Positions 12,001-18,000 of a stretch of DNA of 64,000 nt are shown here, piece after piece. The position numbers were made by a program. Positions within the stretch are counted from its first letter, which is position 1, and each line of letters starts with the position of its first letter. The DNA is from an uncultured Candidatus Peribacteria bacterium (lineage in GTDB: Bacteria; Patescibacteriota; Gracilibacteria; RBG-16-42-10), in assembly GCA_964514565.1 (NCBI GenBank), contig CAZERA010000001.1, forward strand, positions 1 to 64,000, in the 5' to 3' direction.

Positions 12001-15000
12001 TAGTATTTTCACGCAAACCACCATTACTAGCTACTCCCATAAAGAATTCTGGCGCAGCATTGGGCGCTAATGCATGGCTGATACGAACGATGTCAGCATT
12101 ATAACTTTGCCACCAGCCCTTGATCATCGATAATTTTTCTTGAGCATATACTTGCGGTGAACGAGCACGGGTGCGGGTAGTATTGCTAGCAGTCTGACCA
12201 CCTGCAGGACCACTAATAAATTGATTTACTCCTGTAGTCTGGAAGTTGGGATTTTCATAACGAGTAGAACGAACCTGACAAGCGGTACTGGTACCAAAGG
12301 TAAAGAAACAAGGATTCACTAGATACAAGATATATCCACCTGTACCCAATAAAAATAACCCAGATAGCACGCCTACGATTCTTTCTTTCGCTTTATTTGC
12401 TTGCTCTCCACCGCCACCAATGATGATTTGAATACCGGACACAATCAACATGAGAAGAGCAATAGTACCAGCAATGCCAGCTGCATAAGAGAATAAAATA
12501 CGAGCATAGTTGGCTATCACACCACCATCAGATGAGATAGTAGTAGTCCCGTTGATTGGTGCTTCCAAAGGAATAGCACCAGCAGGGACAATTACTTGTT
12601 GAGCGGGAGCGCTACCTGGATTAGAACCAGTATTGGTTGTATCAGTTGGAGTATTGTTAGTAGCAGCTGCTGTGTCAGTACCACGACAGTTGAGTGGCGT
12701 AGCTGCTGGAGCACTTGTATCTGTACGAACCACTAGCAATGTAGCTAATCCCCCGTTATTGAGCGTACCACCACCTTGGTCACTTGGTGAAAGACGGCTA
12801 TTGATACGCATCATAGTAGAAGAGCCACTATCTAGATTGTAGGCAGCTGTAGCTCCTTGGCGCTTTAAGAAATCAATACCCTCTTGTGGAGTCACGCCTT
12901 GATTACGATTGGCACCTTGGCCACCAGTGAACAAAATGAGTTTGTGACCAGCTTCATTTACTCCTAAAAAGGTGCGAGCAATAGAACCCTGCGCATCACT
13001 AACATCATGAGAATAAATCTGAGAAAAACGGGCATTGATATCACTAGCCGTCATCTGCGCTAGCGGTTTCTGAATGGAATCTATCCGATAAATACCTCCA
13101 ATATACATTTTGTATTGGCTAGCCCTCTCTGGCGTGAGTTGACCTGTGTTTAGTTCATACTGACCATCGGTTTTAATGGCAAAGTAACTACTACTACCCG
13201 TCTTACCTAAATAAACTTGATTGCCTATATAGTCGCCAAGCACAGCTGAACCATCAAAGAAATTGGCATTGATGAGACCAACAACATTATTAGTGTTACC
13301 TAAAGCATTGAACTGATCAGAAGAAAATTTAGCACCACAGCTAGTCTTACCTTCTGGTCGCACAGTCACCACACTGGTATCAGCCACCAAGGCTCTCAAA
13401 TCTCTACCACTACTAGTGGTGTCTTTCACAAAAGTGACACCGCTCACGAGGTCATTGCGTGTCTCAGCAGCAAAAGTAGCACTGAAGCTAGAAAGAAAAA
13501 GAGTGAAAGCAGTAAATCCCCAGGCTAAAGAGCCAATAATTCGGCGACGAGAAGAAAAATTCATAAGAAATAACTTATCAAAAATCAGCAGTCATATAAT
13601 TGTACCACAACATAGCATAAGTCCCTACAGTTTACTTGCTGAGAGAAAGCCTAACAAACTGCTCAAGCAAAGCACCAGGAAAAAGTGGCACTTCTTCCTC
13701 TAGAGCTTGCTGATAAAAAACCGTAGACGCCGTCAGACCAGGTAAAGAGTTGACCTCAATTAAAATAATCTTGCCAGTTTTAGTCTGAACAAACGCATCA
13801 AGGCGAGCATAGCCTTCTATCCCTAACTTATCAGCTAAAATCTTAATATTTGCTTTCACCTTTCGTAACAACTTGGTGGGCAAAATACTAGCCGGTGGTG
13901 GCGTGATATTAATACCTGTACCACCTTGAAACTTTTCTTCTACACTCAACACGTCCCCTTCGGCAATAGTAATGCTGGGATTGAAAACATGCATATCAGC
14001 TTGTTTACCAACCACTCCAACAGTAACCTCTACCCACCCTGACCGAGCATAGTGCTTCAATTCATTGCCTTTTACTCGGATCAGATCGGTCTCAATAAAT
14101 TGTTCTATCAAGATTTCCGTCATATGCAGAGGCATCTCCACTGTATCAGTTTGATTCTTGAACGTGTTCTTGGGAATAGCATCCAATCCCAGTCGAATGA
14201 TCTCTACATATCTATAGAACTCTTCTGCAGAATACAAATGAACTATGCCTGACGAACAGCCATCGCTTCGAGGTTTCACAATAAGGGTGTTGCTACCAAG
14301 CTCTTCACAAAGATTGTTCCACAGCTGCTTACAACGTTTAGTACTGATGGAAAGAATATCAGCAAGCACCAACACTTTTTTGCTAGCAGAAACGACACCA
14401 GCTATGCATAGATCCTCTACTCGTTTGCCAGTCAACCACTTATCCATACACAATGCAGAGATCCTTTGGTTGGAACCATTGTAAGCACACCCTTCTTTTG
14501 CTAGCAAAGCTTGTAGCGTCCCATTCTCACCATCACCACCATGGAGAGCAATAAATAAGGCAGGTGATTGCTTGATAAACTGCTCTAAACTAAGCCGTAA
14601 AGGTAATTCATTGATATCAAGATCAAATTGGTCCGAAGCTAAACGTAATTGAACCTTTTTTTCCAAAGCGACCAAACGTTCTTGATTGAGTGAAGCATTC
14701 TCACAATTGATTTGAATCTCTTCTACCGTGTGGTTCAAACTAAAAGCATAAGGTAAACGCCAAACTTTGTTTTCAATATCTAGTAAAAAGGGAATAGGTT
14801 CATACAGATCAGAATCACGAAGCTTAAGCCAAACATTTGTGCCACTCATCAACGAAACCTGACGTTCAGAAGTCTGCCCACCAAAAAGTACATGAACAGG
14901 TTGTCTCTTGGCCTTGTGGTTCTTTGCCAAGCTTGGAAAAGGAAGCTGGTAGCGACTAGCAGCGTGCTGCACAATATGTCGAAGCACTCCTTGATGAGTG

Positions 15001-18000
15001 AATCCAACTCTGGAAGCTTGCTGAAACAAGAAACTATTTTGCTCCATACCACTAATGGGATTGAAATCTGAAAACCAGATATTGCCATCATCCAAGACCC
15101 ATCCGTCAAAACGAGCAAAGTCTCTCATGCCAAAAAGAGCAAAAAGCTGTTCAGCTTGCACTTGGATCTTCTCAATAGTTTCTAAATTGAAGCGGGGTGG
15201 ACAGTGATATGTTACTTGCCGAGTGGGCAAATACTTTTTTCTAAAATCAAAAATTTGATGCTCAGTATAATCAGTCTCAATCTCAGTCGGTAAAATAGCT
15301 ACAGGCAACCCAAATCGGTTTTGAAGTAAAATGACCGTAAATTCAGTACCAGATGCAAACGGCTCAACCACAATACGGGTATCCATTCTTTTACTGAAAA
15401 TAAGCTCAACCTTTTCCAATGCCTCTTCTACAGTACTTACCGAGAACACACCGATACTTGATCCACCTGATGCTGGTTTCACTACAGCTCTCCTTAGCCC
15501 GTATTGAGAGAAAAAAGCCTGTAAGAGTTTCTGGTGATCCGTATGAAAGATCTTTAACACAATCGATGGCAAGGTAAAAAAGCCATGGTCTTTGATCAGC
15601 TGGTTGGCAGTAAACTTATCAAATACTTTTTTGCAAACACTACTACCTGTACCCACAAAAGGAATTGAGTGTTTCTCCAAAAACTTCTGAATAGTACCAT
15701 CTTCACCAAAAGATCCATGCATAACAGGAAAAACAATATCACAATCTTGCAAATTTCTAACCAGTTCTTTTTCCGATAAGATTTTGGCTGTTTGTTGTAG
15801 CTTAAAGTCAAAGTCAGAGGGAGTATTAGAGTAGAGCTGCGCTTGAGAAATACGATAAGCTTGTTTTTTATGATCAAAATAAAATGGCACTATTTCAATA
15901 TCCTTACTACCCAAGTGATCAAGTACAGAACGCGCAGAATTCAAAGAAATACCTCGTTCTAATGAGGGGCCACCACAGAGGATTGCAACTGTCATAAGTG
16001 TTATATTAAAAGCACCAACACGCATCAAGCTAAAGAATAAAGCACTATTTTGCAAATTTACATACTCAAAACATTCATAAAACATGATAAAGTGCAAAGA
16101 GCAAAGAAACCAATCTCACTCACCTTGGCAGTGACAAGAAAACGGCTATGATACTTTGGTGTTATTTGAAAGCCTATGATGCCTCTAGCTCACCGCATAC
16201 GCCCCACCCAGTTTGACCAATTATATGGCCAAGAACATCTGTTTGGCCCAGAGGGGCACTTAGCCAAACTACTCCAATCAGGCATACTGCATTCTTTTAT
16301 TTTGGTCGGTCCGCCGGGCACAGGAAAAACTAGTATTGCCAATATTATTGCTCATAGCATTGATGCTCACTTTGTAGAACTCAATGCTACTGAAGCAAAA
16401 GTGGCAGATCTGCGTAAACATAGCCAAGCAGCGAAAGAACGACTACTAGCTTACAACCAAAGAACCATTGTATTCGTAGATGAGATCCATCGCTTCAATA
16501 AAGGCCAACAAGATACGCTTTTACCCTTTGTAGAATCCGGCCATATTGTTTTGATTGGTGCTACCACCGAAAATCCTTCATATGAAATCAACCAAGCATT
16601 GTTATCACGCACTACAGTTTACCGTTTGAATAGTTTAGATGATGTCGCTCTCAAGAAAATATTAGCTAGAGCACTGCATGAAGGTTATTTGGATGAGGTA
16701 AAGTTGAGTGATGCAGTACAGGACTACTTAGTTACTATTTCAGCAGGTGATGCTAGAAGTTTATTGAATGCTCTAGAACTTTTAGTAGCTACACAAAAAA
16801 CTACTGCAGATTTAAATAGCATCCGCCAATTCTTAGCCAAACAACACATTCGCTATGACAAGCGCAGTGAGGAACACTACAATACTATCTCTGCCTTCAT
16901 CAAAAGTTTACGAGGCAGTGATCCTGATGCCAGCTTGCTTTGGATGTGGAAGATGATTGCCGGTGGAGAGGATCCCCAGTTTATTTTTAGAAGAATGCTT
17001 ATTTTGGCATCAGAAGATGTTGGCATGGCTGATCCACAAGCATTAGTTTTCATTCAAAACGCATTGCAAGCATTCAATGTAGTTGGCTTTCCTGAAGGTA
17101 AATACTTCTTAGCTCATGCTTGTATTTACTTAGCCAAGGCCCAAAAAAGTAATGACATTACTAAAGCAATGGGAAAAGCAGATGAATATTTAGAACAGCA
17201 CACTAATCTCCAAGCGCCGCTGCACCTGACCAAAGAAGGAGGAAAGGATTATTTGTATCCGCACAACTATCCCAAGCACTGGGTCAAACAAGACTATTAC
17301 CCAGTCAATACTCCCCGCACGCCTATTTACCAACCACCAGAAACGCAATAATGCTGTCAACTATAAAAAGGGCTTACCTATAGCACAAAAATTCCCTACC
17401 GATACAATAAGAACGTTATTAACACATGTTTTATGGAATTTTTAAATACACAATTGGGTAAGGTATTAGTAACTTTAGTCTGTATATTTTTAGTAGTAGG
17501 TATTATTAGTGGCATTGTTACCACCAACACTTCTTACAACAGCTACAAGAAAGATTATCGCAACACAATTACTGTTAGTGCTGATGACAAAGTAATTGCC
17601 AAACCAGATATTGCTTCGATTAGTTTGTCTGTAGTAAGCAAAGGCAAAACAGTTACTGAGGTAACTACTGATGGTAACAAAAAGATGAGTGATGTGGTCG
17701 CTGCTCTCAAAGCAATGCAAATCGATGAGAAAGATATTCAAACCACGGGCTATTATCTCAATCCTGAGCAAGACTACTCAATTGATCGTGCTCCAAATCA
17801 AGTTCCAACTATTACTGGATATACATTGAGCCAAACAGCTACAGTCAAAGTACGCAAAATCGACTCAGTCGGTGATGTAGTACAAAAAGCGACTAGCTTA
17901 GGTGCCAACGAAGTAGGTAGCATCAATCTCACTATTGATGACCAAGATAAATTACAAGATCAAGCTCGCGAAAAAGCATTTACCAAAGCAAAAGCGAAAG

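What a model noticed while it worked through the whole genome (the two positions that open the first line are those of the whole stretch)
13632..16085. Two-module D-Ala-D-Ala-ligase-like protein shared at ~60% identity by host-dependent bacteria of several phyla
Besides the canonical ddl (g00119, next to alanine racemase) the genome encodes g00010, an 817-aa protein made of two tandem D-alanine--D-alanine-ligase-type ATP-grasp modules (res 33-373 and 397-794; the second has a ~150-aa insert). It belongs to a tightly conserved family of 780-830-aa proteins without a specific name that occurs in many Patescibacteria and also in genomes labelled Dependentiae, Parachlamydiales and Gammaproteobacteria, at 59-75% identity over 96% of the length. 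Such conservation across phyla points to horizontal spread of a two-step peptide ligase among small-genome, host-dependent bacteria; its product is unknown.
Evidence so far: pfam.tsv: Dala_Dala_lig_N 33-145, Dala_Dala_lig_C 183-373, Dala_Dala_lig_N 397-538, Dala_Dala_lig_C 686-794. Swiss-Prot best hit Ddl 25%, covering the first module only. Search: 2,688 proteins of 449-1430 aa with E<=0.001 among the 8,000 candidates scored; the 119 best besides itself are 778-827 aa, 59-75% identical over 95-99% of the query; names: hypothetical protein of Abawacabacteria, Taylorbacteria, Sungiibacteriota, Magasanikbacteria, Kaiserbacteria, Gammaproteobacteria (2), Parachlamydiales, Dependentiae; JGI 'D-alanine--D-alanine ligase'. 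No conserved neighbour (neighbours.tsv, call 168).
(Added by a program. Inside this text positions count along the whole contig: contig position 1 is position 1 of the stretch shown here. "Call 12" and the like, gene names such as g00115 and contig names such as C1 are that model's own, and its searches are not shown. The text may have been shortened before it was handed on; [...] marks where a part breaks off. The agent that wrote the report below was given it as the finding of a first reader that could run no searches.)

Follow-up and report, generated by a model that had tools for sequence, protein, structure and literature searches.

The report
Plant-type double D-alanine ligase gene
This gene encodes a double-headed form of the enzyme that joins two D-alanines for the bacterial cell wall, the same fused form that plants carry, and it seems to have been inserted into this small genome, where the ordinary copy has decayed.

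Summary
The ORF is real: window 13632-16085, minus strand, 817 aa, probably starting at M31. [quoted passage not shown]

It is not an unnamed two-step peptide ligase. It aligns end to end with plant DDL (Coffea, 44-49% identity), the known fusion of two Ddl enzymes needed in moss for chloroplast peptidoglycan.

Evidence for D-alanine and peptidoglycan:
- Alanine racemase lies near it in 16 of 80 related loci, and is the next ORF downstream on the same strand in 11.
- Natural fusions exist: tandem-Ddl+MurF and tandem-Ddl+MurF+Alr.
- It is the only strong Ddl match in 8 of 10 carrier genomes and in 7 of 9 carriers in a phylum sample.

Across 145 family members both modules keep every catalytic residue. 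Module 1 has the classical S150/Y216 pocket. Module 2 has a fixed C150/F216/T281/V282 pocket whose product is unknown.

In this genome the "canonical" ddl next to alr carries K215Q, R255K and S281G. The tandem gene is a clean one-gene indel between two genes that are adjacent in a same-genus genome.

Cross-phylum transfer is supported. Restriction to host-dependent bacteria is not.

Verdict: new member of a known kind, moderate interest.

The parts
13632..16085 (-). ORF as given, 817 aa plus stop. The probable true CDS is 13632-15995 (787 aa, start at M31).
14931..15995 (-). Module 1 (residues 31-385), a classical Ddl. Residues in DdlB numbering: E15, H63, K97, K144, S150, K215-Y216, R255, D257, D at position 270, N272, S281, F at position 282.
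   Evidence: Pfam and NCBIfam. Alignment to E. coli DdlB. Z 37 and rmsd 2.1-2.5 A over about 320 residues to solved Ddl structures.
13635..14897 (-). Module 2 (residues 397-817), a diverged Ddl with all catalytic residues kept. Its second-substrate pocket is changed to C150/F216/T281/V282 in DdlB numbering, which corresponds to C610, F719, T788 and V789. It also has several short insertions.
15231..15236 (-). Codons K284-Y285, the module 1 equivalent of DdlB K215-Y216 in the omega loop.
13929..13934 (-). Codons K718-F719, the module 2 equivalent of K215-Y216. Phe is found in all 145 aligned family members except one gap.
14256..14258 (-). Codon C610, the module 2 equivalent of DdlB S150. It is Cys in 139 of 145 family members and Ser in 6.
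13565..13631 (.). Left junction of the single-gene indel. The flank is conserved with same-genus genome G011.
16086..16175 (.). Right junction of the indel, also the divergent promoter region shared with rarA. The flank is conserved with G011.
11291..13564 (-). Downstream neighbour, a 757-aa protein with a NAGPA (phosphodiester glycosidase) domain. It is not part of the system. In G011 it lies directly beside rarA.
16176..17351 (+). Upstream divergent neighbour, an MgsA/RarA AAA+ ATPase. It is not part of the system and marks the other side of the indel.

Best explanation
The gene encodes a plant-type tandem D-alanine--D-alanine ligase, with two Ddl-type ATP-grasp modules in one chain. Inferred mechanism: each module binds ATP/Mg2+, phosphorylates the carboxylate of one D-Ala and couples it to a second D-Ala. 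The dipeptide then goes to MurF for the peptidoglycan stem peptide. Because single-module Ddl works as a homodimer (recalled), the fusion most likely acts as a covalent pseudo-dimer. In this genome it is probably the working Ddl. It was acquired as a single-gene insertion, while the old ddl next to alr has lost catalytic residues. What is shown: the domain make-up, the conservation of both active sites, family membership with plant DDL, the genomic associations and the indel. What is inferred: the enzymatic product, the activity of module 2 and the pseudo-dimer geometry. The confidence of 0.55 is for this full statement, with both modules making D-Ala-D-Ala. The narrower claim that the protein supplies D-Ala-D-Ala for peptidoglycan I put at about 0.8.
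For: 1. Two Ddl modules; TIGR01205 scores 319.9 against a cut-off of 245.65. Module 1 superposes on solved Ddl structures at Z 37.

2. Both modules keep E15, H63, E68, K97, K144, S151, E187, K215, R255, D257, E/D270 and N272 in essentially all 145 aligned tandem proteins: 36 core, 9 plant or eukaryote-like, 78 other, 22 deep.

3. The protein is colinear with Coffea DDL over residues 27-812 against 77-945. Identity is 44% by BLASTP and 49% by phmmer. Land plants including Physcomitrium patens belong to the family.

4. [quoted passage not shown] Loss of moss DDL gives macrochloroplasts (PMC9434261). DDL is listed as a D-Ala-D-Ala ligase characterised in Physcomitrella and Arabidopsis (PMC7432710).

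5. Alanine racemase lies within the fetched flank in 16 of 80 related loci and is the next ORF downstream on the same strand in 11. It also follows the gene in metagenome locus L089.

6. Natural fusions: P0156 is tandem Ddl plus MurF (TIGR01143 319.7 against 288.6). P0177 is tandem Ddl plus MurF plus Alr (TIGR00492 295.7 against 168).

7. It is the only strong Dala_Dala_lig_C match in 8 of 10 carrier genomes. In a sample of 151 genomes of the phylum, 9 carry it and in 7 of those it is the only strong match.

8. In G000 the other ddl has K215Q, R255K, G276S and S281G. Its orthologues in the three same-genus genomes are degenerate in other ways, while those in the other two genera of the family are intact.

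9. The same-genus genome G011 has the NAGPA gene and rarA adjacent. G000 has this gene between them, with conserved flanks.

10. AlphaFold2 model: pLDDT 86.4, pTM 0.86.
Against: There is no enzymology for any bacterial member. I also found no assay of the separate modules of the plant enzyme in the passages read.

Module 2 lacks the S150/Y216 pair. It has Phe at the position where Tyr versus Phe decides dipeptide versus depsipeptide activity in lactic-acid-bacterial Ddl (PMC5996685). It may therefore not make D-Ala-D-Ala.

In the window the gene is not next to alr or murF.

G000 is 92.66% complete and its assembly shows no murE or murF. An unassembled second Ddl cannot be excluded. Against that, the spot syntenic to G011's murF-like/ddl pair is continuous in G000 and lacks both genes.

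Only module 1 was covered by the structural second look.
Confidence: 0.55

Rival explanations
1. Bifunctional enzyme. Module 1 makes D-Ala-D-Ala. Module 2, with its fixed C150/F216/T281/V282 pocket, couples D-Ala to a different second substrate, such as D-lactate, D-serine or another D-amino or hydroxy acid. The protein would then supply two different termini or products.
For: The module-specific pocket residues are near-universal across 145 proteins from deep bacterial clades to plants, so the two sites have been kept different under selection. At the Y216-equivalent position, Phe versus Tyr decides depsipeptide versus dipeptide activity in lactic-acid-bacterial Ddl (PMC5996685, abstract and passages). 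The modules are only 22% identical to each other, no closer than either is to single-module Ddl.
Against: The NCBIfam D-Ala-D-Lac and D-Ala-D-Ser models score far below their cut-offs: 170.5 against 550 and 210.5 against 520. Their best stretches lie in module 1. No D-lactate dehydrogenase, VanX-like gene or serine racemase appeared among the recurrent neighbours. The moss precursor study describes the pentapeptide building blocks as identical to those of typical Gram-negative bacteria (PMC9434261 passages). The effect of Cys at position 150 is unknown.
Confidence: 0.25
2. Module 2 is a catalytically silent structural partner. It would be a pseudo-subunit that only provides the dimer interface or regulation for module 1.
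For: Module 2 is more diverged from Pfam's Ddl models: its C-domain scores 45.8 bits against 97.2 for module 1. It also carries several insertions. Its omega loop, residues 709-722, is the least confident part of the model.
Against: All ATP-, Mg- and phosphate-binding residues of module 2 (K97, K144, E187, K215, R255, D257, E270, N272 equivalents) are kept in about 143-145 of 145 proteins. That is not expected of a dead domain. By contrast, the genuinely decaying ddl of genus g1 lost such residues within a single genus.
Confidence: 0.1
3. One reading: a two-step peptide ligase that builds an unknown oligopeptide unrelated to the peptidoglycan D-Ala-D-Ala branch. Each module would add one residue in sequence.
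For: There are two differentiated ATP-grasp active sites in one chain. The gene in this window has no pathway neighbours.
Against: The recurrent alr neighbour, the MurF and MurF+Alr fusions, the sole-Ddl status in most carriers, and the genetic role of the plant orthologue in chloroplast peptidoglycan all tie the family to D-Ala-D-Ala.
Confidence: 0.05

Closest known systems
Plant DDL (Physcomitrium patens PpDDL, Arabidopsis At-DDL; represented here by Coffea eugenioides XP_027176337.1)
   Same: Same two-module architecture. The alignment is colinear from end to end, at 44% identity by BLASTP and 49% by phmmer. Module 2 has the same insertions, and the motifs are shared: PSDFDFKL, RKKYLPTRQVTYH, ISGMEQxSFLFQQ, DGCSxG and EEKFQGGTGxNxTPPP. 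The S/Y versus C/F split between the modules is also the same.
   Different: Plant proteins carry an N-terminal extension of about 75-100 aa and are nuclear genes. The bacterial gene has none and sits in a 1.1-Mb genome. In the FastTree tree the plant proteins fall in a clade separate from the query's core clade.
E. coli DdlB and other single-module Ddl enzymes (for example PDB 2DLN, 6U1F, 3TQT)
   Same: Same fold (Z 34-37 for module 1) and the same catalytic residues in both modules.
   Different: Those are single modules of about 300-370 aa that dimerise (recalled). Here two modules only 22% identical to each other are fused, and module 2 has C150/F216/T281/V282.
D-Ala-D-Lac ligases (LmDdl2 of Leuconostoc, F-type Ddl of lactobacilli, VanA)
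   Same: Module 2 has Phe at the omega-loop position equivalent to DdlB Y216, the residue that distinguishes depsipeptide ligases from dipeptide ligases in lactic acid bacteria. The equivalence with LmDdl2 F261 is recalled. LmDdl2 (1EHI) is among the best structural matches, although the aligned range is module 1.
   Different: The NCBIfam D-Ala-D-Lac models score far below their cut-offs. No van-type accessory genes appear among the neighbours. Cys at position 150 is not a feature I know from those enzymes.
Other fusions of the D-Ala branch: MurC-Ddl of Chlamydiae and the bifunctional MurF/alanine racemase (NCBIfam NF008897)
   Same: Enzymes of the same pathway are fused. Family members P0156 and P0177 add MurF, or MurF plus Alr, to the tandem Ddl.
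   Different: The window's protein has no Mur-ligase or racemase domain.

Membership tests
[quoted passage not shown] | N-terminal Dala_Dala_lig_N domain plus ATP-grasp Dala_Dala_lig_C domain, scoring above the curated cut-offs | tested here: met
   Both Pfam families match twice, at 155.9 and 146.4 bits against cut-offs of 34.6 and 24. TIGR01205 scores 319.9 against 245.65 and NF002528 scores 300.6 against 262. No equivalog-level model reaches its cut-off.
[quoted passage not shown] | ATP/Mg/phosphoryl-transfer residues in DdlB numbering (list recalled): E15, K97, K144, E187, K215, R255, D257, E270, N272 | tested here: met
   All are present in module 1 (with Asp at position 270) and in module 2. 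They are conserved in about all of 145 family members.
[quoted passage not shown] | Second-substrate pocket S150/Y216 with S281/L282 (recalled) | tested here: inconclusive
   Module 1 meets it, with S209, Y285, S351 and F352. Module 2 does not, with C610, F719, T788 and V789.
[quoted passage not shown] | Ddl fold | tested here: met
   Module 1 (residues 29-381) matches at Z 37.1, rmsd 2.2 A over 323 residues to 6U1F. Foldseek TM-scores normalised to the target are 0.78-0.88. Module 2 was not searched on its own.
[quoted passage not shown] | Forms D-Ala-D-Ala from D-Ala and ATP | not testable with these tools
   Support is indirect only: the alr neighbour, the MurF/Alr fusions and sole-Ddl status.
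Plant-type tandem DDL (Ddl-Ddl fusion) | Two Ddl modules in one polypeptide | tested here: met
   The paper describing the plant fusion is PMC9954125 (passages).
Plant-type tandem DDL (Ddl-Ddl fusion) | Full-length colinear homology to a plant DDL | tested here: met
   Residues 27-812 align with 77-945 of Coffea XP_027176337.1 at 44% identity and 637 bits. phmmer gives E 1.7e-186.
Plant-type tandem DDL (Ddl-Ddl fusion) | Shared module-specific signatures: module 1 S/Y, module 2 C/F | tested here: met
   In the 9 plant or eukaryote-like rows, module 1 has S9 and Y9, and module 2 has C9 and F8 plus one gap.
Plant-type tandem DDL (Ddl-Ddl fusion) | Required for D-Ala-D-Ala supply to peptidoglycan (genetic test) | not testable with these tools
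   Known for moss only (PMC9434261 and PMC7432710, passages).
D-Ala-D-Lac / D-Ala-D-Ser ligases (Van-type, LmDdl2) | Score above the NCBIfam D_ala_D_lac or D_ala_D_ser cut-offs | tested here: not met
   170.5 against 550 and 210.5 against 520. VanA-type models score 121-155 against 700-775.
D-Ala-D-Lac / D-Ala-D-Ser ligases (Van-type, LmDdl2) | Phe instead of Tyr at the omega-loop position | tested here: met
   Met in module 2 only, at F719. The rule comes from PMC5996685.

The most novel reading that the evidence does not exclude
The tandem enzyme is an ancient obligate hetero-pair of two different ligases. Module 2's Cys150/Phe216/Thr281/Val282 pocket, fixed from deep bacterial clades to land plants, would catalyse a second reaction distinct from D-Ala-D-Ala formation, for example making a D-Ala-D-hydroxy-acid or another D-Ala-D-X product. 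Plant DDL and these bacterial genes would then be bifunctional. Plant DDL would descend from a bacterial tandem gene of this mobile family.
Probability: 0.25. Interest if true: 0.7.

Novelty: new member of a known kind. Interest (0 to 1): 0.45.

Why it matters
**Link to plant DDL.** The finding connects a gene labelled 'hypothetical' in many uncultured bacteria with plant DDL. Plant DDL is one of the four peptidoglycan genes kept by all flowering plants, and its two-module design is unexplained.

**A testable question.** The two active sites have been kept different (S/Y versus C/F) everywhere. This asks whether each module has its own job, a question that applies to plants and bacteria alike.

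**A case of replacement.** For this genome, a horizontally acquired tandem enzyme appears to stand in for a decaying resident ddl.

**Annotation.** The result shows the 'canonical' ddl here should not be taken as functional without checking its catalytic residues.

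Tried and rejected
1. Absence of murE and murF from G000 was considered as a sign of a non-canonical stem-peptide pathway. 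I rejected this. Same-genus genomes have 5-6 Mur-ligase matches. In G011, murE and murF lie just upstream of the truB-rhodanese pair, which in G000 sits 2.7 kb from the start of contig C1. An assembly gap is the simpler reading.

2. A stand-alone module 2. The 'shorter' search gave 559 hits, with gene calls of about 400-444 aa. However, the two related metagenome loci I opened, of 7 returned, hold full tandem ORFs of 789 and 837 aa. Split forms are therefore not shown.

3. Naming the bacterial sisters of the plant clade. Two cluster look-ups gave almost no taxon names, so the donor of plant DDL stays open.

4. Literature on bacterial tandem Ddl. Searches found only MurC-Ddl or MurB/C fusions and the plant fusion. 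I found nothing on the bacterial tandem form in that library.

5. My recollection that bdelloid rotifers carry a two-domain Ddl was not borne out. None of the 12 listed papers held the word 'bdelloid'. I did not use it.

6. The earlier-findings tool was not open.

7. The structural second look (pdb_via) covered module 1 only.

8. Composition gives no sign of foreign origin: the gene is 40.3% GC against 41.4% for the window.

9. One script failed on a name mismatch and was corrected.

Full report
**Observation.** The ORF lies on the minus strand at 13632-16085 and gives 817 aa from the ATG at 16085. Pfam finds Dala_Dala_lig_N and Dala_Dala_lig_C twice each (second C-domain at 13704-14030). NCBIfam's general Ddl models are passed: TIGR01205 scores 319.9 against 245.65. 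No equivalog model is passed. PDB sequence hits are all Ddl or Van ligases and mostly cover module 1. Homologues begin at the query's M31, so the true start is probably the ATG at 15995. The '150-aa insert' is really several short insertions plus a diverged central domain.

**What family it is.** An exhaustive phmmer search against 1.84 billion cluster representatives gave 12341 hits at E<=0.001 and 381 at E<=1e-30. Full-length two-module proteins extend down to about 32% identity. One representative, P0167, is 956 aa and 49% identical. It is Coffea eugenioides XP_027176337.1, on a 56-Mb chromosome. BLASTP aligns it colinearly with the query, residues 27-812 against 77-945, at 44% identity. 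The alignment includes the module 2 insertions and the family's signature motifs. A search seeded with P0169, an unnamed 842-aa member of the plant-containing clade, lists Selaginella, Sphagnum, Physcomitrium patens, Marchantia, many angiosperms and Mesostigma. [quoted passage not shown] Passages of PMC9434261 and PMC7432710 report that loss of moss DDL gives macrochloroplasts and list DDL as a D-Ala-D-Ala ligase. The window's protein is therefore a bacterial member of the plant-type tandem DDL family.

**Function from context.** I called ORFs in the 80 related loci from species-representative genomes and clustered them.
- The commonest neighbour is alanine racemase (Pfam Ala_racemase_N/C). 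It occurs in 16 of 80 loci and is the next ORF downstream on the same strand in 11, often with a 2-18 bp gap. A further metagenome locus shows the same arrangement.
- Longer family members are natural fusions. P0156 is tandem Ddl plus MurF. P0177 is tandem Ddl plus MurF plus alanine racemase. Both pass the curated cut-offs.
- In 8 of 10 carrier genomes searched, the tandem gene is the only strong Dala_Dala_lig_C match. These include a 2.2-Mb genome labelled Gammaproteobacteria, a TM6 genome and a Parachlamydiales genome. Other matches score 24-45 bits in frames of 351-1177 aa; I took these to be other ATP-grasp enzymes without checking.
- In a sample of 151 genomes of the window's phylum (at least 85% complete), 88 have a strong match. 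Nine have it in a frame of 775 aa or more, and 7 of those 9 have no other strong match.

Together these findings place the enzyme on the Alr-Ddl-MurF branch, as the working Ddl of most carriers.

**The two active sites.** I mapped both modules onto E. coli DdlB. The DdlB sequence came from NC_000913; the list of key residues is recalled from the Ddl literature. Both modules keep E15, H63, K97, K144, E187, K215, R255, D257 and N272.
- Module 1 has S150, Y216 and S281, with Asp at position 270 and Phe at position 282.
- Module 2 has C150, F216, T281 and V282.

This pattern holds almost without exception across 145 tandem proteins from the core clade, the plant or eukaryote-like clade, intermediate clades and deep clades. 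Module 2 has C150 in 139 and F216 in 144 with one gap. The modules are only 22% identical to each other. Both sites therefore look catalytic, and they have been kept different since the family arose. In lactic-acid-bacterial Ddl, Phe versus Tyr at this position decides depsipeptide versus dipeptide activity (PMC5996685). That makes a distinct module 2 product a real possibility, though nothing else here supports a Van-like system. The AlphaFold2 model is confident, with pLDDT 86.4 and pTM 0.86; the low-confidence parts are residues 1-27 and the module 2 omega loop. Module 1 superposes on solved Ddl structures at Z 37. That the modules pack like a Ddl homodimer is an inference and was not measured.

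**This genome.** G000 is 1.12 Mb in 7 contigs and 92.66% complete. It has murB, a FemAB-like gene, ftsW, murG, mraY, murC, murD, two FtsI-like PBPs, ftsA and ftsZ, but no murE or murF in the assembly. Same-genus genomes have them. G011's copies lie just upstream of genes that sit at the very start of G000's contig C1, so a gap is likely.

The 351-aa ddl next to alr carries K215Q, R255K, G276S and S281G. Its orthologues differ as follows:
- G011 and G012 carry S151H and E270N.
- G013 carries K215N, Y216H, R255T, E270K and N272S.
- The orthologues in the family's other two genera are intact.

G011 and G013 hold a second, intact Ddl, which in G011 lies next to a MurF-like gene. G000 lacks that pair at the syntenic, continuous spot and instead has the tandem gene.

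The tandem gene was found in 6 of 31 relatives, in none of the 3 same-genus genomes and in 1 of 7 genomes of the family. In G011 the NAGPA-domain gene and rarA are adjacent, 201 bp apart. In G000 the tandem gene sits between their orthologues (76% and 90% identical), and the flanking intergenic sequence is conserved on both sides. The 74-75%-identical copy in G014 lies in a different neighbourhood. Composition is unremarkable.

**Spread.** In a FastTree tree of 147 rows the query sits in a well-supported 40-row clade. Within it, labels of Patescibacteria, Gammaproteobacteria, TM6 and Parachlamydiales are interleaved on short branches. Plant proteins sit in another clade among unnamed proteins of bacterial length. 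An IQ-TREE quick tree of 35 rows agrees. An AU test rejects holding the 8 rows labelled other than Patescibacteria together (p 0.00027; the group was named after seeing the tree).

Labels come from the records and some look wrong; for example, a 0.7-Mb 'Gammaproteobacteria' genome groups with Parcubacteria. However, lpxC lies on the same 2.0-Mb contig as the gene in G005, and elsewhere in the bins of three other carriers. MurC of G000 is 33-42% identical to MurC of five carriers whose tandem proteins are 59-62% identical to the query.

The family is not confined to small genomes. Members lie on contigs of 3.76, 6.11 and 12.18 Mb, and a deep-clade member comes from an Anaerolineaceae MAG.

**Verdict.** [quoted passage not shown] It is horizontally mobile, and in this genome it probably replaces a decayed ddl. 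The open question is what module 2's conserved variant pocket does. I found no paper on the bacterial tandem form in the searches.

Noticed in passing
G000:C1:154049-155104 (outside the window; locus L001:1483-2538, minus strand): The 'canonical' ddl next to alr has K215Q, R255K, G276S and S281G. Its orthologues in all three same-genus genomes are degenerate at other catalytic residues, while those in the family's other two genera are intact. It looks like a decaying or repurposed Ddl paralogue.
   Followed up: yes
window 1-4708 and G011:C2:176000-190000 (L112): No murE or murF was found in G000. In same-genus G011 they lie 1.7-8 kb upstream of the truB-rhodanese pair, which in G000 sits at window 2762-4708 near the start of contig C1. 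G000 has instead a 5'-open 869-aa ORF (window 3-2612) with no Pfam match and no orthologue in L112.
   Followed up: partly
G000:C1:337794-341761 (L087): murD is followed by a PLP-dependent (PALP) enzyme and a 438-aa ATP-grasp_3 protein. This may be an amino-acid-modifying or ligating pair linked to the stem peptide.
   Followed up: no
window 55064-58911: A 789-aa protein fuses a sugar-transfer-associated ATP-grasp domain (ATPgrasp_ST) with a MATCAP-type carboxypeptidase domain. It lies directly after a PKD plus 7TM_transglut membrane protein.
   Followed up: no
window 6908-8953: A class II aminoacyl-tRNA synthetase (tRNA-synt_2 with an OB anticodon domain) carries a C-terminal DUF2000 domain.
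   Followed up: no
window 18368-19307: A tmRNA gene (18368-18783) is followed by a gene for a 23S rRNA intervening-sequence protein (18942-19307).
   Followed up: no
G000:C2:90875-96761 (L086): The cell-wall cluster runs murB, FemAB-family gene, ftsW, murG, MurJ-like flippase. The FemAB-like gene hints at a branched or bridged stem peptide.
   Followed up: no
L113:2662-7518 (G011): G011 has a 1618-aa ORF between the glycosyltransferase pair and the tRNA synthetase gene. It is missing at that place in the otherwise syntenic window.
   Followed up: no
proteins P0153, P0206, P0221, P0224: Other architectures occur in the family: a GNAT acetyltransferase N-terminal to the tandem Ddl (P0153), and long forms with SAP or Rho_N domains and multiple matched stretches. 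The long forms are probably eukaryotic genes.
   Followed up: no
loci L025, L037, L046: Record labels look unreliable. A 0.7-Mb 'Gammaproteobacteria' genome groups with Parcubacteria, and two 'Pseudomonadota' rows group with TM6 in the tree.
   Followed up: partly
window 9096-10991: A 631-aa protein has three S-layer-homology (SLH) domains in a genome of the Patescibacteria group. It is conserved at 73% identity in G011.
   Followed up: no
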